From IMG/VR virus record IMGVR_UViG_2703719369_000026: a DNA stretch of 14,832 nucleotides; one strand, 5' to 3'. A program made the translations under genes and the position numbers. Positions within the stretch are counted from its first letter, which is position 1. Each line of letters starts with the position of its first letter. Source of the stretch: a virus. Its lineage: Duplodnaviria > Heunggongvirae > Uroviricota > Caudoviricetes. The notes below the pieces were generated by a model. The model saw only the letters and a program-made list of their open reading frames with translations. It searched no databases and was not told the DNA's origin. Below, in pieces: positions 1 through 14,832 of this stretch.

Positions 1-1002
1 TTACCCTCTATTGTCAAAAGGGTTCAATTCAACAGCAGCCTCTAAATGACCTGGAGCAAAATGCGCATAACGCATAGTCATTTTTATATCGCTATGCCCC
101 AGTATTTTTTGCAACACAAGAATATTTCCACCCCGCATCATAAAATGACTGGCAAACGTGTGACGTAGCACATGAGTTAATTGCCCATCAGGAAGCTCGA
201 TCTTCGCTCTCTTAATTGCAGCGTCAAAAGCCTCATAACATGGTGAAAATAGCGCTCCTCGTTTTTTAGGAAGCATAGCTTGCAATTGAGGTGAAATCGG
301 TACAGTGCGGTTCTTCTTTCCTTTAGTTTTAACAAATGTGATTCGACCGGGCAGTACTTGAGATTGCTTTAATCCTTCTGCTTCACTCCACCGAGCACCA
401 GTCGCAAGCCCAATACGGACAACAACCCCCAAATCTTTATTCCGTGACTCATCACACGCAATCAGAAGGCGTTCAATCTCATCTACATACAGAAACGCCA
501 GTTCCTTTTCTTCCTCACGAAACTTGCGAATACCAGTCAGGGGGTTTTCACCAGACCACTCCCCAAGGCGCTTCAGTTCGGCAAAAACAGCATGTAGATA
601 TGACTGCTCGCGATTAACGGTTGCTTCACTAAGTTTTTTCTTCCCCTTGGGATTCCATTCTCCTGATAGCCTTCTTTCCCGATAAGTAGCAAACATATTT
701 TTGTCAAACTGAGAAGCAAATGGATCTCCCAGCCTGGAACAAATCGCCTCAAGTTTGACTTTGCGCTCTGCACCAGAGGACAAGGTTTTACCGTACATCT
801 CAAACCAACGAGCAATCAACTCAGAAAGACGAGGACCAGAACCATCTTGAAACTCGTCTCCAACTCTACTATTCATTAAACGGCGCTCATAAGAGAGCGC
901 CTCACTTTTTGTCGCAAACTGTTTACGAATGCGTTTTCCCGATGCCCCGTAGGGATAACATTCACAAAGCCATTTACCTGATGGAATCTTACGAACCGAC
1001 AT
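1..1002 (-). CDS. int: Tyrosine-type site-specific integrase (phage integrase family)
   Basis: Complete 333-aa ORF with the stop at window positions 1-3. The C-terminal catalytic region carries the tyrosine-recombinase signature (HVLRHTFASH ... LGHSDIKMTMRYAHF, i.e. the R/H/R/Y residues). Its ATG lies 5 nt downstream of the preceding gene's stop on the same strand, so it is probably co-transcribed. Confidence 0.9.
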   Translation of the reverse strand: MSVRKIPSGKWLCECYPYGASGKRIRKQFATKSEALSYERRLMNSRVGDEFQDGSGPRLSELIARWFEMYGKTLSSGAERKVKLEAICSRLGDPFASQFDKNMFATYRERRLSGEWNPKGKKKLSEATVNREQSYLHAVFAELKRLGEWSGENPLTGIRKFREEEKELAFLYVDEIERLLIACDESRNKDLGVVVRIGLATGARWSEAEGLKQSQVLPGRITFVKTKGKKNRTVPISPQLQAMLPKKRGALFSPCYEAFDAAIKRAKIELPDGQLTHVLRHTFASHFMMRGGNILVLQKILGHSDIKMTMRYAHFAPGHLEAAVELNPFDNRG

Positions 1003-1007
1003 TTTAG

Positions 1008-1355
1008 TTACTTATCACATAAATCAAATGCAGCCTTAGTGACATCCCCCAGACTCTTTTTTAACCCTGGGGCGGCATCATTATCTAGCCAAAATGGATT
1101 ATTGTTATCTAACGGTAACGCACCAAATGTTTTACCTTTTATTCGAGCCAAACCTGTAAGTGCATATAACTTATTATCGTCAAAATTCATCACATAAGGA
1201 TTACCATCAAGACACTGTAATTGAACCTCATCAGTATTAAATGGCCATACCCCATTGAAACTCTCACGTTCAATAGTTTTAAAAGGCATTGCGACGGCGG
1301 AAAAAGAAAACATAGATAAAAAAGTAACTAATAGTTGAACCTTTTTTACTTTCAT
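1008..1355 (-). CDS. Small secreted/periplasmic protein, possibly DUF2511/YebY-like
   Basis: 115 aa with a typical N-terminal signal peptide (MKVKKVQLLVTFLSMFSFSAVA) and two cysteines (QCLDG ... DLCDK) that could form a disulfide. GAGGT ribosome-binding site about 9 nt upstream. The family assignment is from memory of the YebY pattern and is not verified. Confidence 0.55.
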   Translation of the reverse strand: MKVKKVQLLVTFLSMFSFSAVAMPFKTIERESFNGVWPFNTDEVQLQCLDGNPYVMNFDDNKLYALTGLARIKGKTFGALPLDNNNPFWLDNDAAPGLKKSLGDVTKAAFDLCDK

Positions 1356-1384: not shown

Positions 1385-2035
1385 TTACAAATTAAAAAAC
1401 GCCCTAGAAATGACACCGCCTACCAAAACCCCTACGCAGATAAAGAATATTATTTCTTTTGGATAAAGTCGGATTAATTCTGAAGCACGAAGTCGGACTT
1501 CTGGTAAGGTCGAACTCTCTATGTGGCTTGATGCCGATTGTTGCTCTAACCACGACAATGCAGACTGTAACTGAGAACGAGTAAGATCGTTTAAACGTCC
1601 TGTACCGAAATTGATATGGCAATACCGCAGAAGTTTTTGTCGAAGTCCACAGTCTTCACTGTTACGTAGTAATAAACTTACAAGAGCCTTACAGGCATCA
1701 TGATCTTTACATCGCTCAAGCATTGCATGCAGAAAACTCTCCGCTGTTTTATATTGATTTACTGTCATATCATCAATACCAGCTACACCAATCTCCGCAT
1801 GTACTTTTTGCCAAATAATAAACGCTTCAGTATTGCTAGCTTCTGCAATAGCAGCAACCAAGCTATTTAGCTCCTTACGCTGAGCCTTAAGCAAAGGGCG
1901 ATCGTCATCATCATTATTCGAAGGGATTGCGATATTGACGGTATGAGAACCATCATATCGCTCTATCTGAATATTCTTTTCGTGAAAATCACGCCCAGCA
2001 ACGCGATTGTTTGAACCGTTTGAGTTGACGGCCAT
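1385..2035 (-). CDS. Hypothetical tail-anchored membrane protein (single C-terminal TM helix)
   Basis: 216 aa. The soluble N-terminal part includes a poly-Asp stretch (NNDDDDR), and the extreme C-terminus is about 20 hydrophobic residues (IIFFICVGVLVGGVISRAFF). Strong GGGAGGTG ribosome-binding site immediately upstream. The N-terminus repeats a motif found at the C-terminus of the upstream HTH protein. Confidence 0.6.
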   Translation of the reverse strand: MAVNSNGSNNRVAGRDFHEKNIQIERYDGSHTVNIAIPSNNDDDDRPLLKAQRKELNSLVAAIAEASNTEAFIIWQKVHAEIGVAGIDDMTVNQYKTAESFLHAMLERCKDHDACKALVSLLLRNSEDCGLRQKLLRYCHINFGTGRLNDLTRSQLQSALSWLEQQSASSHIESSTLPEVRLRASELIRLYPKEIIFFICVGVLVGGVISRAFFNL

Positions 2036-2050
2036 GTCACCTCCCTACTA

Positions 2051-2455
2051 TCACCTACCCTTAGTTTCGTTATAGTCACGACCAGCGATACGGTTATTAC
2101 CACCAGAAATATTTAACTCACGTCCTGATGGCTGAGTTTCCTTTTCACTGATCGCACCTTTTAAAGCCCCAATCACCGCGTTTTTCACATCTAACGAAGC
2201 TGCTCGAAAGCGAGTAATCAATTCCTGCTCATCATCGTTATAAGTTTCAGGTGAGTGAATTCCCAACACAACATACTGAACATCAAGGCCAAAACGAGAC
2301 AGCGCTGCCAAATACGCAGCATCAGGAAAGCTATCTCCTTTCTCATATCTAAGCTGAGTTAGCTTTTTGACTCCACCAATGTCGCTCATGGCAACTTGAC
2401 TAAGTCCCAATCTTTCCCTTTCCTCACGCAACCGCCGACCAATATCATTTTTCAT
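2051..2455 (-). CDS. XRE-family (Cro/CI-type) helix-turn-helix transcriptional regulator, candidate immunity repressor
   Basis: 134 aa. The N-terminal 65 residues fit the HTH_XRE pattern (IGRRLREERERLGLSQVAMSDIGGVKKLTQLRYEKG). It is first in the leftward operon and transcribed divergently from the rightward early genes, matching the position of P2 C or 186 cI. Confidence 0.8.
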   Translation of the reverse strand: MKNDIGRRLREERERLGLSQVAMSDIGGVKKLTQLRYEKGDSFPDAAYLAALSRFGLDVQYVVLGIHSPETYNDDEQELITRFRAASLDVKNAVIGALKGAISEKETQPSGRELNISGGNNRIAGRDYNETKGR

Positions 2456-2530: not shown

Positions 2531-2737
2531 ATGAAACAAGTTCTTCACGATACCAGATCACGCATTCCGCGTAACACCGCCACAGGTCCAAGACTGGCAC
2601 TTCGGCTGTCCCTCGAGGAGCGAGCCGTCATTGATGAAATGGCAGCTAAAGAACAACGCTCATCCTCTAACATGGCGCGCATGATCTCCCTTCGCGGCCT
2701 AGAGCTAACCCAGAAAGAACAAAACAAATCTTCCTGA
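2531..2737 (+). CDS. Putative ribbon-helix-helix DNA-binding protein
   Basis: 68 aa with an RHH-like beta-strand plus two helices (RLALRLSLEERAVIDEMAAKEQRSSSNMARMI). No clear Shine-Dalgarno sequence, so it may be leaderless or weakly translated. Confidence 0.4.
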   Translation: MKQVLHDTRSRIPRNTATGPRLALRLSLEERAVIDEMAAKEQRSSSNMARMISLRGLELTQKEQNKSS

Positions 2738-2753: not shown

Positions 2754-2957
2754 ATGTCAGGTATAACCATCAATATCAATGTGAATGCCCCCTATGTATC
2801 CCTGCAGAAATATGCAGAGATAACAGGTATCCCTCTTAATACATGCAAAAAGATGTTGGCTGACGGTCGAATTATTATCCGCCCCAAACGCGCCAAAATG
2901 GAAAAGCCTGAAGTAAACCTTGTGGCGATGTTAAAAGACGCTTTGGCTAACAGCTAA
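2754..2957 (+). CDS. Putative Cox/Apl/Xis-like small HTH protein (excisionase or early regulator)
   Basis: 67 aa. AGGAGG ribosome-binding site 8 nt upstream. The motif YVSLQKYAEITGIPLNTCKKMLADGRI resembles the excisionase-type HTH. Its position, first clear rightward gene opposite the repressor, matches cox/apl. Confidence 0.5.
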   Translation: MSGITININVNAPYVSLQKYAEITGIPLNTCKKMLADGRIIIRPKRAKMEKPEVNLVAMLKDALANS

Positions 2958-2978: not shown

Positions 2979-3329
2979 ATGAAAAAAAACGCTAATAATC
3001 CATACTCCAAATTTCGTAATGGCGTAGAACGCCATGTACACCACGTCGCTACCAGTGCATCACGTAGTAACAGTCGCTATAACCTGAACGAGACGCATGC
3101 AACACCGGATGGCCACGCTGTAAAACAAATCGGCGAACATGCCTGGCTGATTGAGAAAGCTGGAATCGTGGTCCACAAATGCCCACGCAATCCGTTTACC
3201 GGGAACCGCATTTTTGCATTGAACTGCGGCGACAATCACTTCGGGCAGGATTTCACATTATACGAAGCACTTCGCACGGTTGATCGTCTGCTTCGCGGGC
3301 AAAGTTTTATTAAACAGGCTGATTTATAA
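2979..3329 (+). CDS. Hypothetical early-region protein
   Basis: 116-aa ORF in the rightward gene chain; no recognisable domain. Confidence 0.45.
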   Translation: MKKNANNPYSKFRNGVERHVHHVATSASRSNSRYNLNETHATPDGHAVKQIGEHAWLIEKAGIVVHKCPRNPFTGNRIFALNCGDNHFGQDFTLYEALRTVDRLLRGQSFIKQADL

Positions 3330-3339
3330 CAGGTGCTTT

Positions 3340-3618
3340 ATGACCAAAGAGCATGCACAAGGTGTATTTATCCGTTTTATTGATTTTCGCGGTGAACTGT
3401 TATTACGCGCATCAGCCATTGACGGAATTGTTCCATCCGAAAAAAACGCAGCTACTTACGTTTATCTGAACGGTACGCGCCTGACTGTGGAGCTTCCGTA
3501 CCAGACCGTACGAGAAATCATTAGCGAAGCTGAAAAGGCTCGTCAGGTTAATGGCGATGAACCCTATATCGAAATTATTTGTATGGATTCAGAAGCTGAA
3601 ATTCAGAAAGCAGATTAA
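3340..3618 (+). CDS. Hypothetical protein
   Basis: 92 aa starting at the ATG at 3340, which has an AGGTG ribosome-binding site. The longer 3280 start in the ORF track would overlap the previous gene by about 50 nt. Confidence 0.5.
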   Translation: MTKEHAQGVFIRFIDFRGELLLRASAIDGIVPSEKNAATYVYLNGTRLTVELPYQTVREIISEAEKARQVNGDEPYIEIICMDSEAEIQKAD

Positions 3619-3629
3619 AGGGCGTTGCG

Positions 3630-3872
3630 ATGGGCAAAGAATATAAAACTCTCATTAACAAAGCACCTGAACGATTTTATTTTCGCTTAAGTGCATCAGG
3701 CGCTCATGCTGAACGTGCAGCCCGTGACTCATTGACCAGGGCAATCCGGAGTTTGTATGACGTTGCTTTTTACGCTGATGATCTGGATGCACTTAACGAA
3801 CTTTCCGAGCTGATCTGTGCCGCAGAATGCGGGGAACACATTGAACCATATAAGCTGGGGAATATCGCATGA
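3630..3872 (+). CDS. Hypothetical protein
   Basis: 80-aa ORF. Its stop overlaps the next start (ATGA at 3869-3872). Confidence 0.5.
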   Translation: MGKEYKTLINKAPERFYFRLSASGAHAERAARDSLTRAIRSLYDVAFYADDLDALNELSELICAAECGEHIEPYKLGNIA

Positions 3873-5599: not shown

Positions 5600-5830
5600 A
5601 TGGCAGACCGCAAACAGCACCGCGCTATCGCGGAGCGTCGTCACATCCAGACTGAAATCAACCGCAGACTTTCCCGCGCATCACGCGTCGCGCAAATCAT
5701 GCACATCAATATGCTGCATGAGCGCAGCCACGCACTATCAAACATTTATTCCGCCTCTGTTTTCAGCTATCTGGCGGATGATCTGCACGAGTTTCAACAG
5801 CTCATCCAGCAGCAAAACAAACTCCATTAA
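5600..5830 (+). CDS. Hypothetical small basic protein
   Basis: 76 aa with an AAAGAGG ribosome-binding site 7 nt upstream. It is preferred over the overlapping 205-aa ORF at 5289..5906, which crosses the hairpin structures. Confidence 0.4.
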   Translation: MADRKQHRAIAERRHIQTEINRRLSRASRVAQIMHINMLHERSHALSNIYSASVFSYLADDLHEFQQLIQQQNKLH

Positions 5831-6274: not shown

Positions 6275-9097
6275 ATGACGGCAGAGTACATCAGGGACTG
6301 GCAACAACCGCGCCACGCAGTGGGGCGTGAAGGAACGGGGATCCCCGCTCCTGAATCCGCGCTTTCCTCCTGGCTGGATGCCTACCGGGTAGAGAACGAG
6401 CGCCGCCAGGAAATGGCTGATGCGGCGTTCTCCGCAACGCCGCTGGGCAACCTGATTAATAAAAGCCTGGACGCACAGGAAAAACAGGACAAAACCATCA
6501 CACTGGCAGGAGACGCCAGAAAACAGGCACGCGGTGCGGTGGATGAAGCCATGGCCTCGCTGCGCCTGCTGCCGTCCTATCTGCGCGATCCGCTTATTCG
6601 CCACCTCTCCTTCCTGCGCAAAAAACAGGAAGCCGATCGTCAGAAAGGCAAAAAGAGCTGGCAGGCTGAACGCTACGCGCGCGGAAACCTGCGCAAAATA
6701 TTCGAACGTCTGGAGCGCACCGATCACCGCTGGCTGACACAGGGTTATCGCTCCCTTGCCGGACGCGAACGCCTGGACGATTTGCTTTACCTGCCGCAGC
6801 TCAACAAACACCAGATACAGACGCTGGCCACCATGACGGCGGCGATGTTCAGCAGCACCTTCGAAAAACTCTGCGATGGCTTTGGCGCGACCGATGGCGA
6901 ACTGACCATGGATGTAACGCTGAAGGCGTATCAGATGCTGGCCCGCATGGCGTTACACCTGCACGCCATGCCTCCACATTATGACGCACTGACAACAGAC
7001 AAAGACCGGAGGAACGAACCGGACACGGAGCTGCTGCCGGGCGCAATCCTTCGCCTGACCTGTGCGGAATGGTGGAAACGCAAACTGTGGCTGTTACGTT
7101 GCGAGTGGAGAGAAGAACAACTCCGCGCCGCCTGTCTGGTTTCCAGAAAAACATCGCCCTATCTGAGCCAGGACGCGTTAAGCGAGTTTCGCGCACAGCG
7201 CGAGAAAACACGCGATTTCCTGAAAAGTTTCATGCTGGAAAACGAAGACGGGTTCACGATTGATCTCGAGACAGTGTATTACGCGGGAGTAAGTAACCCG
7301 GTTCACCGTAAGGCAGAAATGATGGCCACCATGAAGGGGCTGGAACTTCTGGCCGAAGCCCGTGGCGACAAAGCGGTGTTTCTGACTGTCACCTGCCCGT
7401 CAAAATACCACGCTACAACAGAGAACGGTCATCCGAATCCCAAATGGAACGGGGCCACCATGCGCGACTCCAGCGATTACCTGGTTAACACGTTTTTTGC
7501 GGCGGTCCGCAAGAAACTGAACCGCGACGGCCTGCGCTGGTATGGCATCCGCACGGTGGAGCCTCACCATGACGGCACCGTGCACTGGCATATGATGGTC
7601 TTTGCTCATCCGGAAGAAATCGACACCATTGTGTCCCACACCCGCGATATTGCCATTCAGGAAGATCGTCACGAGCTGGGCGATGATATTACTCCGCGCT
7701 TTAAGGCGGAGTATGTCGACGGCTCAAAAGGCACGCCAACCAGCTACATCGCCACCTACATCGGAAAAAACCTGGACAGCCGCGCCGTGGATGGCATCGA
7801 CCCGAAAACAGGCAAACCACGCGTTGACCACGAAACCGGAAAATCAATGACCGAGAGCGTGGAACGCGCCATTGGCTGGGCGCGCCTTCACCGGGTCCGC
7901 CAGTTCCAGTTCTTTGGCATCCCCTCCCGTCAGGTGTGGCGTGAACTGCGTCGCCTTGCCAGCCAGATGGCACGCAACCCGGAAGGCCCGCAACGGCTGA
8001 AGGATGACGCAATGGATGCGGTTCTTGCTGCCGCTGATGCCGGATGTTTTACCACCTACATTGAGAAACAGGGAGGCGTACTTGTTCCACGCAAGGACTA
8101 CCTGATTCGCACCGCCTACGACCTCGCAGATGAGCTGAACGATTACGGCGAACAGAGCGTACAGATTTACGGGATCTGGTCACCACTCATCGGGGAATCC
8201 TCCCGTGTGTGCACGCACCCGGATAACTGGAAGCTGGTAAGACGTAAACCGGGAGTAGAAGACAGCGCCCGCGAAAATGGTTTTGACCTTCAGGGCGGCC
8301 CTGCCGCCCCTTGGACTCGTGGCAATAACTGTCCCCGTGTACAGGAAACGGACAACAACGGGACAGAACAGCCGGAAGAACGGCCAGCACCGTGGCCGCA
8401 GCTTCCTGACGGCGTTGACGTGAACGAATGGATGCGCTCACTGAAACGGCACGAACGCCGGGCGCTGATGCGTTCGCTTCGTGACAAACAGGCAAAAAAC
8501 AGCAGTGATGAAATGCAGAGCTGGACACAGAGCCGCAAACAGCAGCGGCCTTTGCCTGATAACCACGAATTACTCGCTAAAGAATGGCGGGAGTCTGCTG
8601 AATCTCTCGGCCTGCATATCGGTGAACAACAGATGCAGCACCTGTTACGGGGCGGCAGTCTGTACGTTGACGGCAGCATCATTGCACCGCAGGGATTTGA
8701 AATTGTACGCAAACCGGATACCCGCCCGGACAGCCGAATCACGCAGCTCTGGCAGCGCCTGAGCCGTAATCATGGCGTAAGCAGCACGGAGATCCGCCAT
8801 AACCCGGTCGCCAGCTATCTGGCACAGCTGGGGGCATCAGACCCTGAAGCCGCCGCACGCCTGGCATCCACACTTCAGCAGGACCAGAACACCATGAAAA
8901 CACCCGTTACCGTGCTTTCTGACATGCTGCGCGCCATCCGCGACGCAGAGCACGCACAGAGAATCAGTGAAACCACTGAACGCGCCAGCCGCAAAGCAGA
9001 CCTGCTGCGGGGTGGCCTGACCAGTGGAAACAAAAAACAGACAGAAACGGGACTCACAAATCCCGTAAATGAGCAAAAAACGCGCCGCGATATATGA
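6275..9097 (+). CDS. Rolling-circle replication initiator/endonuclease, phiX174/P2 gpA superfamily
   Basis: 940 aa. HUH motif VHWHMMVF encoded at about 7580-7603, and a paired-tyrosine active site SYIATYIGK (YxxxY) with the tyrosine codons at 7745-7747 and 7757-7759. It is about 180 aa longer at the C-terminus than the roughly 760-aa P2 A protein. Confidence 0.88.
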   Translation: MTAEYIRDWQQPRHAVGREGTGIPAPESALSSWLDAYRVENERRQEMADAAFSATPLGNLINKSLDAQEKQDKTITLAGDARKQARGAVDEAMASLRLLPSYLRDPLIRHLSFLRKKQEADRQKGKKSWQAERYARGNLRKIFERLERTDHRWLTQGYRSLAGRERLDDLLYLPQLNKHQIQTLATMTAAMFSSTFEKLCDGFGATDGELTMDVTLKAYQMLARMALHLHAMPPHYDALTTDKDRRNEPDTELLPGAILRLTCAEWWKRKLWLLRCEWREEQLRAACLVSRKTSPYLSQDALSEFRAQREKTRDFLKSFMLENEDGFTIDLETVYYAGVSNPVHRKAEMMATMKGLELLAEARGDKAVFLTVTCPSKYHATTENGHPNPKWNGATMRDSSDYLVNTFFAAVRKKLNRDGLRWYGIRTVEPHHDGTVHWHMMVFAHPEEIDTIVSHTRDIAIQEDRHELGDDITPRFKAEYVDGSKGTPTSYIATYIGKNLDSRAVDGIDPKTGKPRVDHETGKSMTESVERAIGWARLHRVRQFQFFGIPSRQVWRELRRLASQMARNPEGPQRLKDDAMDAVLAAADAGCFTTYIEKQGGVLVPRKDYLIRTAYDLADELNDYGEQSVQIYGIWSPLIGESSRVCTHPDNWKLVRRKPGVEDSARENGFDLQGGPAAPWTRGNNCPRVQETDNNGTEQPEERPAPWPQLPDGVDVNEWMRSLKRHERRALMRSLRDKQAKNSSDEMQSWTQSRKQQRPLPDNHELLAKEWRESAESLGLHIGEQQMQHLLRGGSLYVDGSIIAPQGFEIVRKPDTRPDSRITQLWQRLSRNHGVSSTEIRHNPVASYLAQLGASDPEAAARLASTLQQDQNTMKTPVTVLSDMLRAIRDAEHAQRISETTERASRKADLLRGGLTSGNKKQTETGLTNPVNEQKTRRDI

Positions 9098-9173: not shown

Positions 9174-10133
9174 ATGAAAATTTGTATCGACGACGGCTCC
9201 ACCAACATCAAGCTGGCATGGACTGAGAACGGCGAACGCCGCAACGCCATCAGCCCGAACAGCTTCAAGTCGGAATGGTCTGCGCCATTCGGTGGCACGC
9301 AGCCCGCGAACTACATGCTTGATGGCGTGCGCTATGGTTTTGATCCGGTCAGCGATCGCTTTGTCCAGACGACCGACACGCAATACCAGTACAGCGATGT
9401 GAATGTAATTGCCATTCATCACGCGCTGGTCAAATCAGGCATCACACCACAGGAAGTGGATGTGGTTGTCACCCTGCCACTGAGCGAGTATTTCGATACA
9501 AACGCACAGCCGGACATGGCCAACATCAACCGCAAAAAAGCGAACGTCATGCGCCCGGTGGAGTACCAGAACGGCGAAGCATTCACTATCCGTAACGTAC
9601 GGGTTATGCCTGAATCCATTCCTGCTGGCTTTAAGGCACTGGCTGACATGAGTCCGTTTGAATCCCTGCTGATTGTGGATTTGGGCGGAACCACGCTGGA
9701 TGTGGCAAAGGTTCAGGGGCAACTGGCAGGTATCAGCCAGGTGTTTTGCGATCCACACGTAGGCGTTTCTCTGATGGCCGATGCCGTACTGTCGGTGATG
9801 GCCACTAACGGTATGCGCACCAGTCACCACATCGCCAATACCATTATCGAACATCGCCATGATGAAGCCTGGCTGCGCCAGCACATCCACAATGACGCGC
9901 ATTACGCCAGCCTGATGGCGGTTATTCGTGAAAAGGAAGAAACACTGAAACAACGCGTGATCCGCGCGCTGGCGGTTTTTTCGGGTTACGGGCGGGTGAT
10001 GGTTGTCGGTGGCGGGGCGGAGATTGTGGCAACCGCTATCCGCGAAGCCTGCGGAGTTAATGCGACTTTCATCGCGGACGGGGTGCCACAGTTTGCTCTG
10101 GTTAATGGGTTGTACGCAATGAACAAGGAGTAA
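9174..10133 (+). CDS. parM: ParM/StbA actin-like segregation ATPase (type II partition)
   Basis: 319 aa, alignable by eye along its full length to R1 ParM. Actin-fold motifs are present: IDDGSTNIKL (phosphate-1), VDLGGTTLD (phosphate-2) and VVGGGAE. AAGGA ribosome-binding site. Confidence 0.92.
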   Translation: MKICIDDGSTNIKLAWTENGERRNAISPNSFKSEWSAPFGGTQPANYMLDGVRYGFDPVSDRFVQTTDTQYQYSDVNVIAIHHALVKSGITPQEVDVVVTLPLSEYFDTNAQPDMANINRKKANVMRPVEYQNGEAFTIRNVRVMPESIPAGFKALADMSPFESLLIVDLGGTTLDVAKVQGQLAGISQVFCDPHVGVSLMADAVLSVMATNGMRTSHHIANTIIEHRHDEAWLRQHIHNDAHYASLMAVIREKEETLKQRVIRALAVFSGYGRVMVVGGGAEIVATAIREACGVNATFIADGVPQFALVNGLYAMNKE

Positions 10134-10137
10134 ACCA

Positions 10138-10452
10138 ATGACGACACCAACCAGACGGATAAGTTTCTATCTGAAGCCCGCCGCCGTCAAGAGTGAACAG
10201 GAGGCGTGCAATTACCTCGATAGCCTGCCAGCCTCCGAACGCAGCCGCGCGCAACGCGCGGCCTTTCTGGCTGGGCTAGCACTCATAAAGCGCAACCCAG
10301 CATTTGCCTACTGGATGGCCGAATGGCCAGAGGACAACCTCCCCTTCAATACCGTTAGCATCAAGGAAACATACCAGGCTAATCAGCCTAGCGGAGTTGA
10401 ATGCAATTTTTATAAAATAAAAAAGAATATTCAGACCTTATTCCCAGAATAA
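10138..10452 (+). CDS. parR: ParR/StbB centromere-binding adaptor
   Basis: 104 aa starting 4 nt after the parM stop. The N-terminal RHH region (ISFYLKPAAV ... LDSLPASERSRAQRAAFLAGLAL) matches the R1 ParR pattern. Confidence 0.85.
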   Translation: MTTPTRRISFYLKPAAVKSEQEACNYLDSLPASERSRAQRAAFLAGLALIKRNPAFAYWMAEWPEDNLPFNTVSIKETYQANQPSGVECNFYKIKKNIQTLFPE

Positions 10453-10471
10453 TCTGATAATTGTATGTGAA

Positions 10472-10926
<455 letters not shown>

Positions 10927-10979
10927 TAAAGTTATGTTCCTGACGTATGTATTCGTCCCGCAGGAATCAACCAACTGAT

Positions 10980-11369
10980 TTATCTGAATTTATCATGCCC
11001 CTCAACTCTGATTTTATTCATCTTGTTTACCGAATCGGGTATATCTGATAACTGTCCCGATAAGACTTTTTGTTTCGCCAGCATAATCTCTTTTTCAAGC
11101 TTTTGAAGTTCTTTTATATAGTCATTCTTCCCTTCTTCATCAGCCGGTGAAATGCTCTCAGGAAGACGCTTCATTGACTCATCTACAGCATCATCCATTC
11201 TGTCAAGAGCTTCAAGAAGCTCCTTTTTATCCATTGATGACTGAAGTACACTCATATTCCTTGCAAGAACTTGCATGCTTTCATCAAGTTCTTCTGCCAC
11301 TGTAATCCCCCCACACAAAAAATATAATGCCATACCACAGCTGATTATAACTTTATTGCTTTTCTGCAT
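10980..11369 (-). CDS. cybC: Cytochrome b562 family protein (periplasmic, four-helix-bundle haem protein)
   Basis: 129 aa with a signal peptide. A Met near the mature N-terminus (AEELDESMQVL) and a C-terminal His (EGHDKFR) parallel the Met and His haem ligands of E. coli cytochrome b562. AAGGAG ribosome-binding site. Lies 43 nt downstream of the catalase-peroxidase gene. Confidence 0.75.
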   Translation of the reverse strand: MQKSNKVIISCGMALYFLCGGITVAEELDESMQVLARNMSVLQSSMDKKELLEALDRMDDAVDESMKRLPESISPADEEGKNDYIKELQKLEKEIMLAKQKVLSGQLSDIPDSVNKMNKIRVEGHDKFR

Positions 11370-11381
11370 AATTTCTCCTTC

Positions 11382-11404
11382 ATGAGGGAGGTGCCCTCCC
11401 TCAT
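11382..11404 (-). other. Intercistronic stem-loop between the catalase-peroxidase and cytochrome b562 genes
   Basis: Perfect 9-10 bp inverted repeat (A)TGAGGGAGG-tgc-CCTCCCTCA(T). It is not followed by a U-run on the coding (minus) strand, so it is unlikely to be an efficient intrinsic terminator. Confidence 0.5.
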
Positions 11405-11412
11405 CAGTTTTA

Positions 11413-13638
<2,226 letters not shown>

Positions 13639-13799
13639 TTAAGGGAAATTCGCATGTTGTATACAAAAGTCAACTTTATTGATGCAACAGGATATACCTA
13701 TTGCTGGGATAGATACTACAGACAAAAAATACTAAGGGGTTCCAAGCCGCAACTGACGATGCCGTTGAGTTCTGCGCAGACCTGAATATTCCCTTCTTT

Positions 13800-13985
13800 G
13801 TGGATGTCAGAAACAAAAAGCTGGTCTTCTGGTTTGTACGTGTTGATGACGAAGGGTATCCTGAAATAGCCCGCTGCACGGAGCGGGAGTTTGCGACCAT
13901 TCTTGCCGGTATCAGCGCCGGCGGCATGTACTGCCCGGAGTGTGGCACGGTTCACTGGCCGGACGGAGTTCCCCCGCCCTTCTGA
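13800..13985 (+). CDS. Hypothetical small ORF, possibly an IS91-family accessory ORF remnant
   Basis: 61 aa from a GTG start. The open frame extends upstream to 13713 without an ATG. Its stop overlaps the ATG of the IS91-like transposase (TGATG). Confidence 0.3.
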   Translation: MDVRNKKLVFWFVRVDDEGYPEIARCTEREFATILAGISAGGMYCPECGTVHWPDGVPPPF

Positions 13986-14420
13986 TGCTTCCCCGTTTTG
14001 CCGACATTTTTCAGCAGGGAAACCGCTGGCTTAACTGGCTGGAGAAACAACCGGAAGGTTCAGTGCGTCCGGTAGTCATTGAGTCTGTGACAAAAATCAT
14101 GGCCTGCGGGACCACGCTGATGGGGTACACACAGTGGTGCTGTTCATCTCCGGACTGCAGCCACATAAAAAAGGTCTGCTTCCGGTGTAAAAGTCGCTCC
14201 TGCCCGCACTGCGGAGTGAAGGCTGGCGCACAGTGGATACAGTATCTGCTGAGTCTGGTTCCCGACTGTCCGTGGCAGCATATTGTGTTCACACTTCCCT
14301 GCCAGTACTGGTCCCTGGTGTTCCACAACCGGTGGTTACTGGCAGAGATGAGCCGCATTGCTGCGGATGTGATACAGGAAATCTGCCGCCAGGCAGATGT
14401 GCGACTACGAACTCGAACCA
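13985..14420 (+). pseudogene. IS91-family (rolling-circle HUH-Y2) transposase, N-terminal fragment only
   Basis: N-terminal zinc-binding region typical of IS91 TnpA (VRPVVIESVTKIMACGT ... CSHIKKVCFRCKSRSCPHCG). The frame then gives way to IS3-family orfB sequence near 14420, so the catalytic HUH/Y2 domain is absent. Confidence 0.7.
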
Positions 14421-14424
14421 CAAT

Positions 14425-14832
14425 CTGCCAGTTGCGCCAAATCTGCTGAACCAGACGTTCGCTCCTGCAGCACCAAATCAGGTCTGGGTGGCGGACCTGA
14501 CGTATGTTGCCACACAGGAGGGATGGTTGTACCTCGCTGGCATCAAAGATGTTTATACGTGCGAAATTGTCGGCTACGCCATGGGAGAGCGCATGACAAA
14601 AGAGCTGACAGGTAAAGCCCTGTTTATGGCGCTCAGGAGCCAGCGCCCACCTGCCGGGCTAATCCACCACTCTGATCGAGGTTCACAGTACTGCGCATAC
14701 GATTACCGGGTCATACAGGAGCAGTTTGGTCTGAAAACATCAATGTCGCGTAAAGGTAACTGTTACGACAACGCTCCGATGGAAAGCTTCTGGGGAACGC
14801 TGAAAAATGAGAGCCTGAGCCACTATCGTTTT
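14425..14832 (+). pseudogene. IS3-family transposase orfB internal fragment, continuing beyond the window
   Basis: Hand translation in frame 1 gives NQVWVADLTYVATQEGWLYLAGIKDVY ... LIHHSDRGSQYCAYDY ... CYDNAPMESFWGTLKNE, a DDE integrase core. There is no upstream orfA or inverted repeat. The sequence differs from the IS629-like copy at 10484-10926. Confidence 0.8.

What the first reader, a model, noticed from the sequence alone, without database searches (positions are those of the whole stretch)
1979..2107. Conserved peptide motif repeated across the gene junction
The last residues of the repressor (SGGNNRIAGRDYNE, encoded 2066-2107) and the first residues of the downstream membrane protein (NGSNNRVAGRDFHE, encoded 1979-2020) share the core NNR[IV]AGRD[YF]xE. 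The two DNA copies are only about 64% identical, with differences concentrated at synonymous positions. That pattern suggests the peptide is under selection in both proteins, for example a shared docking or protease-recognition tag, rather than a recent slip duplication.
Basis: seen in the sequence. Interest (0 to 1): 0.6.

Follow-up and report, generated by a model that had tools for sequence, protein, structure and literature searches.

The report
Repressor and membrane partner share tag
A prophage repressor ends with the same roughly 20-residue peptide that begins the membrane protein encoded right after it, and this matched pair recurs with lineage-specific variants across many phages, which suggests the peptide couples the lysogeny switch to membrane proteins in a way not described before.

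Summary
The repressor's residues 113-132 (window 2060-2119, minus strand) and residues 2-21 of the next protein (1973-2032) share [IV]N[VS][ST]G..NR[VI]AGRD[FY].E. No shuffle out of 20,000 reached the observed score, and the family profiles align with P = 3e-14.

The motif is conserved in all 120 listed homologues of the membrane protein and in the enterobacterial repressor homologues.

The pattern also generalises. In P2-like and Mu-like prophages of many Proteobacteria, related XRE repressors carry different G/N/Q/V-rich tails. The next gene, or in one case a nearby convergent gene, starts with the matching variant. Cognate pairs score 42.9 on average against 24.9 for non-cognate pairs (permutation p < 1e-5).

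Synonymous sites are randomised (87 same-codon pairs against 77 expected), so gene conversion does not maintain the match.

The motif-bearing partners are unrelated proteins, nearly all membrane-anchored. Both motif copies lie in termini that AlphaFold2 leaves unstructured.

Best reading: a cognate, homotypic beta-strand docking tag that links the prophage repressor to membrane proteins expressed in the lysogen. Its genomic and compositional signature is that of amyloid signalling motif pairs (HET-s/NWD2, BASS, Bab/Agp), but the partner domains are new. Physical pairing, amyloid formation and the direction of signalling are inferred, not shown.

The parts
2051..2455 (-). Prophage immunity repressor, 134 aa: XRE-type HTH (residues 5-65), two helices (74-106), disordered linker, then the C-terminal motif.
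   Evidence: HTH_31/HTH_3 and phrog_8 matches. Divergent from Arc-like and Cox-like genes and close to the integrase. AF2 gives pLDDT above 90 for residues 11-60 and about 50 for 101-134.
2060..2119 (-). Repressor copy of the shared motif, ELNISGGNNRIAGRDYNETK (residues 113-132). The family consensus is sINVSGxGNRvAGRDYnEnKK, ending in a basic tail.
   Evidence: Column conservation of G, R, A-G-R-D and E is at least 0.97 over 39 distinct tails.
2036..2050 (-). Junction between the two genes: after the repressor's own TGA stop come two more in-frame stops (TAG TAG) and the Shine-Dalgarno sequence GGGAGGTG for the downstream gene.
   Evidence: Sequence read directly. Translating across the junction is rejected because of three stops.
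1385..2035 (-). Downstream partner ('effector'), 216 aa: N-terminal motif region, Flk_N-type helical domain, C-terminal tail anchor.
   Evidence: phrog_5825 E 8.5e-103. Precomputed Pfam family PF27202 = Flk_N. NF007987 (Flk) E 8e-16, far below its equivalog cut-off.
1973..2032 (-). Effector copy of the shared motif, AVNSNGSNNRVAGRDFHEKN (residues 2-21).
   Evidence: G7, N10, R11, D16 and E19 are invariant in 41 aligned homologues.
1919..2035 (-). Whole conserved N-terminal segment (residues 1-39), including a second conserved stretch, NIQIERYDGSHTVNIAIPS. AlphaFold2 predicts it unstructured in the monomer.
   Evidence: Invariant I24, D28, T32, N34 and P38. pLDDT 40-52. Similarity of the second stretch to the motif is weak (P 0.003).
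1508..1903 (-). Cytoplasmic helical domain (residues 45-176, Flk_N). It begins with the conserved stretch RPLlkAQRkeLNsLV.
1391..1462 (-). C-terminal transmembrane anchor (residues 192-215), which places the N-terminal motif in the cytoplasm.
   Evidence: AF2 helix 192-215. Homologues show a hydrophobic C-terminal segment.
1008..1355 (-). DUF2511 protein with a signal-peptide-like N-terminus, in the same orientation between the effector and the integrase. Context only: it carries no motif.
   Evidence: Pfam DUF2511, phrog_2950. No match to the repressor tail.
1..1002 (-). P2-type tyrosine integrase (context).
   Evidence: Int_N and Phage_integrase. RefSeq annotation.
2531..2737 (+). Arc-like small regulator, divergent from the repressor (lytic side of the switch; context).
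   Evidence: phrog_3431 E 4e-27. Conserved at this position in related prophages.
2754..2957 (+). Cox-like excisionase/repressor (context).
   Evidence: phrog_575 E 1e-27. 61-75% identical copies in related prophages.

Best explanation
The two peptides are cognate copies of one terminal docking motif about 20 residues long. It is rich in G, N, Q and V and is unstructured on its own. One copy closes the prophage's XRE repressor, followed by a short Lys/Arg tail. The other opens the inner-membrane protein encoded next to it and faces the cytoplasm. I propose that the two copies bind each other by beta-strand (cross-beta or beta-arch) pairing, so the state of the lysogeny repressor is physically coupled to one or two membrane proteins made from the same lysogenic operon. 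Shown here: the match, its conservation, its lineage-specific co-variation, the absence of gene conversion, its attachment to unrelated partner proteins, and its position in prophage immunity modules. Inferred: that the copies bind each other, and that binding is by beta-sheet co-assembly. The most likely logic is that the repressor is the constant sensing or regulating component, the variable membrane proteins are the outputs (exclusion, abortive infection or lysis-related), and pairing holds or triggers them according to the repressor's state. This direction of signalling is a guess. I put it at about 55:45 against the reverse, given that pairing occurs.
For: 1. The match is significant at pair level and at family level.

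2. Both copies are conserved, although both lie in termini that AF2 leaves unstructured while the adjacent domains are confident.

3. Among 80 genome loci of repressor relatives, about 34 have a G-rich tail. In 26 of those, the N-terminus of the adjacent gene carries the same variant. In 22 of 29 loci tested, it is the best match among all 30-109 ORF N-termini within 4 kb. Viral contigs add further pairs.

4. There are about ten distinct motif types, each shared by the two partners of a locus:
- enterics: NRxAGRD[FY]xE in both;
- Pseudomonas: QQFNGPVGSVxxGDVVN / QQFxxxVxQVAAGDIxN;
- Jeongeupia: YGNAQIGQASAGDIVN / FGGAQIDQAAAGDINN;
- Pectobacterium: QIFNGDISGQFAGNQIIN / QEFNGTAQGQFSSRDIIN;
- Ralstonia: GGSNNVQIGSV / GNGNVQIGKV.
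Cognate pairs average 42.9 against 24.9 for non-cognate pairs, permutation p < 1e-5.

5. Synonymous sites are randomised: 87 of 181 identical-residue codon pairs use the same codon, against 77 expected.

6. The motif follows the repressor, not the partner's body.
- The same motif type occurs on unrelated bodies: Flk_N with a tail anchor, a zinc ribbon with two TM segments, and a 2-3 TM protein.
- The same Flk_N body carries different motif types in different lineages.

7. In Klebsiella the HTH domain is different, but the helix, tail and effector are kept.

8. In a Ralstonia phage the match persists although the two genes are convergent.

9. One locus has two consecutive motif-bearing partners (L045).

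10. The modules sit in the immunity regions of P2-like and BcepMu-like prophages. The repressor-integrase interval is a known defence hotspot in P2-related phages (PMC9122126).

11. There is a precedent for proteins co-transcribed with a repressor binding that repressor: lambda RexA binds CI (bioRxiv 10.1101/2021.04.19.439022).
Against: No physical interaction was tested, and multimer modelling was not possible with the tools. AF2 monomer models show no beta structure in either copy. Six tail-bearing repressors had no detectable partner within 4 kb (L022, L024, L028, L040, L046, L080). Two pairs match only when a gap is allowed (L004, L011). The window's variant is unusually charged (R, D, E) for a self-assembling beta motif. 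A phage-encoded third factor that reads both copies could also produce co-variation. No phenotype is known for any member.
Confidence: 0.62

Rival explanations
1. Reverse direction of signalling. The membrane protein is the sensor or anti-repressor. On a membrane, periplasmic or infection cue its N-terminal motifs cluster, capture the repressor tails and sequester or inactivate the repressor at the membrane, which induces the prophage.
For: One partner class has a coiled coil, a single TM segment and a small conserved periplasmic Cys-containing domain (C.F.G..Y..GS...PD..C), which looks like a sensor (L010, L011, L014, L033, L132, L144, L148). The Flk_N domain resembles small peptide-binding helical bundles. 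Lambda RexA binds CI and promotes the lytic transition.
Against: Many partners are minimal 2-TM proteins or bare tail-anchored proteins with no obvious sensing part. Such variable membrane proteins are usually outputs in phage-defence systems (statement in PMC9122126). Because the two genes are co-transcribed, constitutive 1:1 sequestration would defeat repression, so the pairing would have to be conditional.
Confidence: 0.28
2. The two copies do not bind each other. Both are read by a common third factor, such as a host protease or adaptor (degron), a chaperone, or a phage-encoded antirepressor.
For: Terminal, disordered, conserved peptides are typical degrons. The repressor copy is followed by a basic C-terminal tail in nearly all variants. 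From general knowledge, the C-terminal tail of the Mu repressor controls its degradation by ClpXP. The prophage encodes a 76-aa protein that RefSeq names 'derepression protein' (window 5600-5830).
Against: The motif differs sharply between phages of the same or closely related hosts: two types in Gilliamella, several in Pseudomonas, and NRxAGRD against QIFNGD... within Enterobacterales. Yet it always matches within a locus. A conserved host factor cannot explain that. No third copy of the motif was found in the window or in the 3-4 kb flanks, apart from a second membrane partner in L045. The 'derepression protein' carries no motif.
Confidence: 0.1
3. No function. The repeat is a remnant of a slip duplication, or is homogenised by gene conversion, or is a DNA/RNA-level element such as a recombination linker or an mRNA structure.
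For: The repeats are direct, only 87 nt apart, in the same frame and at a gene junction.
Against: DNA identity is 59-64%, and third codon positions are at random expectation in 20 loci. Conservation is at the peptide level across genera. The motif occurs on unrelated partner genes and in a convergent gene arrangement. Direct repeats cannot base-pair with each other.
Confidence: 0.02

Closest known systems
Amyloid signalling motif pairs: fungal HET-S/NWD2 (HRAM), PP/RHIM-like motifs, bacterial BASS1-10 (Bell-domain protein with NLR), and E. coli Bab/Agp (BASS11)
   Same: A motif of about 20-25 residues shared by the C-terminus of one protein and the N-terminus of the protein encoded by the adjacent collinear gene, with a tiny or negative intergenic distance. 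Many sequence families that match within pairs. The same composition bias: G, N, Q, V and I enriched, K, P and L depleted. The motif is attached to interchangeable partner domains. One partner targets the membrane. Occurrence in prophages. Some variants have a RHIM-like VQIG/VQVG core.
   Different: Neither partner domain is one described for these systems. The constant partner is a 130-aa XRE repressor, not an NLR/STAND or TPR sensor. The membrane partners are tail-anchored or 1-2 TM proteins, not Bell/HeLo-type domains. The motif sits N-terminal on the membrane protein and C-terminal on the soluble one. No Pfam RHIM or other motif model matches. Amyloid formation is untested. The hosts are unicellular Proteobacteria. 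The papers read do not mention HTH proteins, repressors or immunity regions.
Lambda cI-rexA-rexB operon
   Same: Genes transcribed with the prophage repressor in the lysogen. One product is an inner-membrane protein. RexA binds CI and modulates the switch, and the pair also excludes other phages.
   Different: No sequence relationship and no shared terminal motif. RexA is a soluble DNA-binding protein that contacts CI through folded domains.
Type II toxin-antitoxin pairs with an XRE-type antitoxin (HigA, MqsA and similar)
   Same: A small HTH protein encoded next to a potentially harmful partner. A disordered terminal region of the HTH protein would contact the partner.
   Different: The HTH protein here occupies the prophage repressor position. 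The partners match no toxin family. To my knowledge, recognition through a peptide present in both partners is not a feature of these systems.
Flk (flagellar biosynthesis regulator of Salmonella and E. coli)
   Same: The Flk_N helical domain and the C-terminal tail anchor.
   Different: 58 bits against an equivalog cut-off of 353. The protein is 216 aa and the Flk profile is 339 positions long. The gene is in a prophage. The N-terminal motif lies outside the region that matches the Flk model (match covers residues 37-166).

Membership tests
Amyloid signalling motif (ASM) pairs (HET-s/HRAM, PP/RHIM, BASS1-11) | [quoted passage not shown] | tested here: met
   Window pair. 26 of about 34 tail-bearing genome loci, plus viral contigs. 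Intergenic distances are mostly -4 to +30 nt.
Amyloid signalling motif (ASM) pairs (HET-s/HRAM, PP/RHIM, BASS1-11) | Composition and beta-arch character: G, N, Q, V and I enriched; K, P and L depleted; predicted beta propensity | tested here: inconclusive
   The composition bias is met: G 1.4-2.6x, N 2.4-2.7x, Q 2.1-2.3x, V 1.5-1.8x; K, P and L 0.1-0.5x (compared). AF2 monomer models give no strands. ArchCandy was not available. The window's variant is rich in R, D and E.
Amyloid signalling motif (ASM) pairs (HET-s/HRAM, PP/RHIM, BASS1-11) | One partner is an oligomerising receptor (NLR/STAND, or a TPR sensor as in Agp) | tested here: not met
   The constant partner is a 134-aa XRE HTH protein with no NTPase or repeat domain.
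Amyloid signalling motif (ASM) pairs (HET-s/HRAM, PP/RHIM, BASS1-11) | The other partner carries a membrane-targeting cell-death domain (HeLo, Hell, Bell or Babybell) or another immune effector domain | tested here: not met
   [not shown]
Amyloid signalling motif (ASM) pairs (HET-s/HRAM, PP/RHIM, BASS1-11) | Sequence match to a described motif family (for example Pfam RHIM) | tested here: not met
   Nine motif segments scanned against Pfam at E up to 10 gave no motif-family hit. By eye, some variants have a VQIG/VQVG core.
Amyloid signalling motif (ASM) pairs (HET-s/HRAM, PP/RHIM, BASS1-11) | The peptides form amyloid fibrils and one copy templates the other (prion-like conversion) | not testable with these tools
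   This needs ThT or Congo red binding, EM or ssNMR on peptides, and GFP-fusion foci, as done for BASS11.
Temperate-phage immunity repressor (XRE/CI-type) | An HTH DNA-binding domain, a gene divergent from the early lytic regulators, and a location in the immunity region of a prophage | tested here: met
   HTH_31, HTH_3 and phrog_8. Divergent Arc-like and Cox-like genes, with the integrase 1 kb away. The equivalent position next to the transposase genes in Mu-like prophages. Repressor activity itself was not tested.
Flk (NF007987 equivalog) | A full-length match above the curated cut-off (353 bits) | tested here: not met
   58.2 bits, covering residues 37-166 only. The protein shares the Flk_N domain (PF27202) and the tail anchor.
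Type II toxin-antitoxin (XRE antitoxin with toxin) | The partner belongs to a toxin family, and the HTH protein is dedicated to autoregulating the pair | tested here: not met
   No toxin family match. The HTH gene is placed as the prophage repressor.

The most novel reading that the evidence does not exclude
The matched peptides are true amyloid or prion-like signalling motifs. Conversion of one copy would template the other, giving an all-or-none switch that links inactivation or assembly of a prophage repressor to a membrane effector, or the reverse. That would extend amyloid signalling from NLR-type immune receptors to the lysogeny switch of a large family of P2-like and Mu-like prophages in common Proteobacteria, including E. 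coli O157:H7, Klebsiella, Salmonella, Yersinia and Pseudomonas. The motif types would act as specificity codes that keep co-resident prophages from cross-talking.
Probability: 0.3. Interest if true: 0.9.

Novelty: new variant of a known kind. Interest (0 to 1): 0.72.

Why it matters
If the pairing is real, a large and common family of prophage repressors is physically wired to membrane proteins through a short exchangeable code. The family has 4,378 clusters at 50% identity with E <= 1e-10, and in a strict screen about 45% of the best-scoring single-domain representatives carry such tails. This would be a new layer in the lysogeny decision or in prophage-encoded exclusion and abortive infection. 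It would explain why conserved 'disordered' tails persist on these repressors. It would also give a simple genomic rule for finding functional partners: a tail that matches the N-terminus of the next gene. It may be a new, experimentally easy case of amyloid-type signalling in E. coli. The system is directly testable with peptides, proline substitutions and motif swaps in an O157:H7 prophage.

Tried and rejected
Only monomers were modelled.
- Pfam scans of motif segments at E up to 10 found no RHIM or other motif family.
- PADLOC has no hit for any partner protein, and only weak HTH-level hits for the repressor.
- A search for an internal pseudo-repeat in the effector N-terminal region (residues 22-40 against 2-21, as in HET-s) gave only P 0.003 with a poor alignment. 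I do not claim it.
- Charge complementarity after the motif, which would argue for parallel in-register pairing, is only modest: the repressor tail averages +1.8 and the effector -0.5.
- No LexA box lies near the 'derepression protein' gene.
- tblastn against deposited phage genomes found only 5 records.
- Literature searches for Flk with prophage repressors, for amyloid with prophage repressors, and for the P2 immunity region found no description of this pairing.
- Gene conversion, a recombination linker and an RNA structure were considered and rejected on the synonymous-site data and the repeat orientation.
Full report
**Where the window comes from.** Bases 1 to about 10,470 are 100% identical to a P2-like prophage inserted next to yecA in many E. 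coli O157:H7 chromosomes. On the minus strand lie four genes:
- the integrase (1-1002);
- a DUF2511 protein (1008-1355);
- a 216-aa protein (1385-2035);
- a 134-aa XRE-type HTH protein (2051-2455).

On the plus strand, divergent from the HTH gene, lie an Arc-like gene (2531-2737), a Cox-like gene (2754-2957) and the early genes. By position and domain content, the HTH protein is the prophage immunity repressor. I call the 216-aa protein the 'effector', without implying a proven role. It has three parts:
- an N-terminal segment of about 39 residues;
- a helical Flk_N domain (PF27202; residues 45-176, pLDDT 80-93);
- a C-terminal transmembrane helix (192-215).

It is therefore a tail-anchored protein with its N-terminus in the cytoplasm.

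**The observation.**
- The similarity extends to 17 aligned residues in the pair.
- It extends to 20 columns when the two families are compared as profiles (hhalign 98.2%, P = 2.7e-14).
- None of 20,000 shuffles of the repressor tail reaches the observed score of 62.
- No other ORF N-terminus in the window scores above 28.

**Conservation.**
- All 120 listed effector homologues (59-98% identical; E. coli, Klebsiella, Enterobacter, Serratia, Erwinia and others) begin with M-x-V-N-S-x-G-x-x-N-R-x-[AS]-G-R-D-[FY]-x-E-[NK]-x-[IV]-Q-I.
- G7, N10, R11, D16 and E19 are invariant in a 41-sequence alignment.
- The enterobacterial repressor homologues end with [IV]-N-V-[ST]-G-x-G-[NQH]-R-[VIA]-A-G-R-D-[YF]-[NH]-E-x-K-K.
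- AlphaFold2 leaves both segments unstructured (pLDDT 40-52), while the neighbouring domains are confident with the same alignments.

These are therefore conserved, intrinsically disordered termini.

**The pattern generalises.** More distant repressor relatives do not have the NRxAGRD tail. They have other G/N/Q/V-rich tails followed by a Lys/Arg-rich end. I fetched 80 genome loci and 80 viral-contig loci of repressor relatives and compared each repressor tail with the N-terminus of the next gene. The next gene starts with the same variant as the tail:

| Host | Repressor tail | Partner N-terminus |
|---|---|---|
| Pseudomonas | QQFNGPVGSVATGDVVN | QQFHERVDQVAAGDIKN |
| Jeongeupia | YGNAQIGQASAGDIVN | FGGAQIDQAAAGDINN |
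| Pectobacterium | QIFNGDISGQFAGNQIIN | QEFNGTAQGQFSSRDIIN |
| Gilliamella | EGQIAGGNIY | AEQIAGRDIY |
| Aeromonas | LNFNGPVGTAFSGD | LNFHAPVEYAAGGD |
| Comamonas | GSVQVGYAGGNV | GNLQVGIAHGDV |

- In a 21 x 21 matrix of tails against N-termini, cognate pairs average 42.9 and non-cognate pairs 24.9. No permutation out of 100,000 reaches the cognate sum.
- In 22 of 29 tail-bearing loci tested, the adjacent gene is the best match among all 30-109 ORF N-termini within 4 kb.
- Overall, 26 of about 34 tail-bearing genome loci show a clear partner. Two more match only if a one-residue gap is allowed.
- Loci whose repressor relative has no such tail show no match; most of these are chromosomal Pseudomonas genes followed by a response regulator.

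**Not gene conversion.** Across 20 loci, 181 aligned positions have the same residue in both copies. 87 of them use the same codon, against 77 expected from local codon usage. In the window the figures are 4 of 10 against 4.4 expected. The copies are old at the DNA level, and their matching is kept at the protein level.

**Modularity.** The motif-bearing partners are not one family. They include:
- Flk_N with a tail anchor (window, Klebsiella, Yersinia, Hafnia, Gilliamella, Pseudomonas, Bordetella, Pectobacterium, Ralstonia);
- a coiled coil, one TM segment and a small periplasmic Cys-containing domain (Aeromonas, Jeongeupia, Burkholderia and others);
- small 2-3 TM proteins, one of them with a zinc ribbon;
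- a few soluble proteins.

The NRxAGRD type occurs on three unrelated bodies, and the Flk_N body carries at least five motif types. In each case the type is the one on the local repressor. Three further observations point the same way:
- A Klebsiella prophage has a different HTH domain but the same C-terminal helix, tail and effector.
- One Cellvibrio locus has two consecutive partners with the motif (L045).
- In a Ralstonia P2-like phage, the repressor tail (GGSNNVQIGSV) and the Flk_N protein (GNGNVQIGKV) match although the two genes are convergent.

So the matching does not depend on translational coupling or on the gene junction itself.

**Context.** The modules lie in the immunity regions of two prophage types:
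- P2-like prophages, with integrase, Cox-like and Arc-like genes;
- transposable Mu/BcepMu-like prophages, with an rve-type transposase, a winged-helix regulator and a Holin_2-3 holin.

An exhaustive profile search finds 4,378 clusters (50% identity) of repressor relatives at E <= 1e-10. Of the best-scoring single-domain representatives listed, 49 passed a strict screen for G/N/Q-rich tails with a basic end. Others carry similar tails that the screen missed.

**Interpretation.** Four facts point to two copies of a motif that must remain compatible with each other, which means a cognate docking tag:
- the peptide is conserved but disordered;
- it is always terminal: it starts 0-3 residues from the partner's N-terminus in most loci and ends 2-10 residues from the repressor's C-terminus;
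- it is present on both products of one module;
- it co-varies without DNA homogenisation and is exchangeable between partner bodies.

A tag read by a conserved host factor is unlikely, because phages of the same host genus use different types. A phage-encoded third reader cannot be excluded.

The genomic signature is the one used to define amyloid signalling motifs: the C-terminus of the upstream product matches the N-terminus of the downstream product, the genes are collinear and often overlap by 4 nt, and many motif families match within pairs (Dyrka et al., bioRxiv 10.1101/2020.01.06.895854). The composition bias is also the same. Some variants contain a RHIM-like VQIG/VQVG core. Amyloid signalling has been demonstrated in an E. 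coli prophage-borne abortive-infection pair, Bab/Agp (bioRxiv 10.1101/2024.11.07.622273).

Membership in that class is not established:
- the partner domains differ (an XRE repressor in place of an NLR or TPR sensor; tail-anchored or TM proteins in place of Bell/HeLo domains);
- no known motif model matches;
- fibril formation is untested;
- the window's variant is unusually charged.

The papers I read on these systems do not mention HTH proteins, repressors or immunity modules. My other literature searches found no description of this pairing.

**Function.** The repressor-integrase interval is a known hotspot for defence genes in P2-related phages (PMC9122126). In lambda, the products co-transcribed with cI include a CI-binding protein and a membrane protein that affect both the switch and exclusion. 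I therefore propose that the motif couples the repressor's state to the membrane protein or proteins.

**Verdict.** The feature is a new variant of the 'matching terminal motif in neighbouring genes' kind, with new partners and a new biological setting. It is readily testable.

Noticed in passing
window 10,470-14,832: The window is a composite. Bases 1 to about 10,470 are the chromosomal P2-like prophage. Then comes an IS3-family fragment containing a run of N (the ORF at 10472-10822 translates with X's). From about 10,485 onward the sequence is 100% identical to the katP region of plasmid pO157: katP at 11413-13623 on the minus strand, a cytochrome b562-like ORF at 10980-11369, and IS91. This is probably a scaffolding join at an IS copy.
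   Followed up: partly
window 2531-2737 (+) against 2545-2682 (-): RefSeq annotates a 45-aa hypothetical protein on the minus strand here. The plus-strand 68-aa ORF matches the Arc-like repressor family phrog_3431 over its full length (E 4e-27) and is conserved at this position in related prophages. The deposited annotation probably calls the wrong strand.
   Followed up: partly
window 9174-10452 (+): The P2-like prophage carries plasmid-type segregation genes, ParM (319 aa) and a ParR-like protein (104 aa), directly after the 940-aa replication endonuclease gene (6275-9097). This suggests a possible plasmid-like maintenance phase.
   Followed up: no
window 5600-5830 (+): A 76-aa ORF that RefSeq names 'derepression protein' (an antirepressor-like name). 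It carries no copy of the motif, no LexA box lies nearby, and it has no NCBIfam hit. Its relation to the tailed repressor is unknown.
   Followed up: partly
window 2036-2053 (-): The repressor and effector genes are in the same reading frame and are separated by three consecutive stop codons (TGA TAG TAG). In many other loci the two genes overlap by 4 nt (ATGA).
   Followed up: partly
L045 4411-4845 and 4861-5628 (Cellvibrio MAG): Two consecutive genes downstream of the repressor both start with the repressor's tail motif (HFHQPVGVVAGRD and QEFNGNVGQVAGGN). This is one repressor with two motif-bearing partners.
   Followed up: partly
L162 2399-2977 (+) and about 3258-3710 (-) (Ralstonia phage YO077_2): The motif pair has a RHIM-like core (NNVQIG in both proteins) and the two genes are convergent. 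A small zinc-ribbon membrane ORF lies directly downstream of the repressor and overlaps the 3' end of the Flk_N gene. The Flk_N protein here has no predicted TM segment.
   Followed up: partly
L163 2099-2491 (Klebsiella prophage): The repressor has a different HTH region (another immunity specificity) fused to the same C-terminal helix and INVSGQGNRVAGRDYNENKK tail, followed by the same effector. A recombination point therefore lies between the HTH domain and the tail module.
   Followed up: no
L010, L011, L014, L033, L132, L144, L148 (downstream genes): A recurrent partner architecture: N-terminal motif, long coiled coil, one TM segment and a conserved periplasmic segment of about 45 residues, C-x-F-x-G-x-x-Y-x-x-G-S-[IV]-...-[AP]-D-x-x-C. 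It has no Pfam match.
   Followed up: no
[not shown]
   Followed up: no
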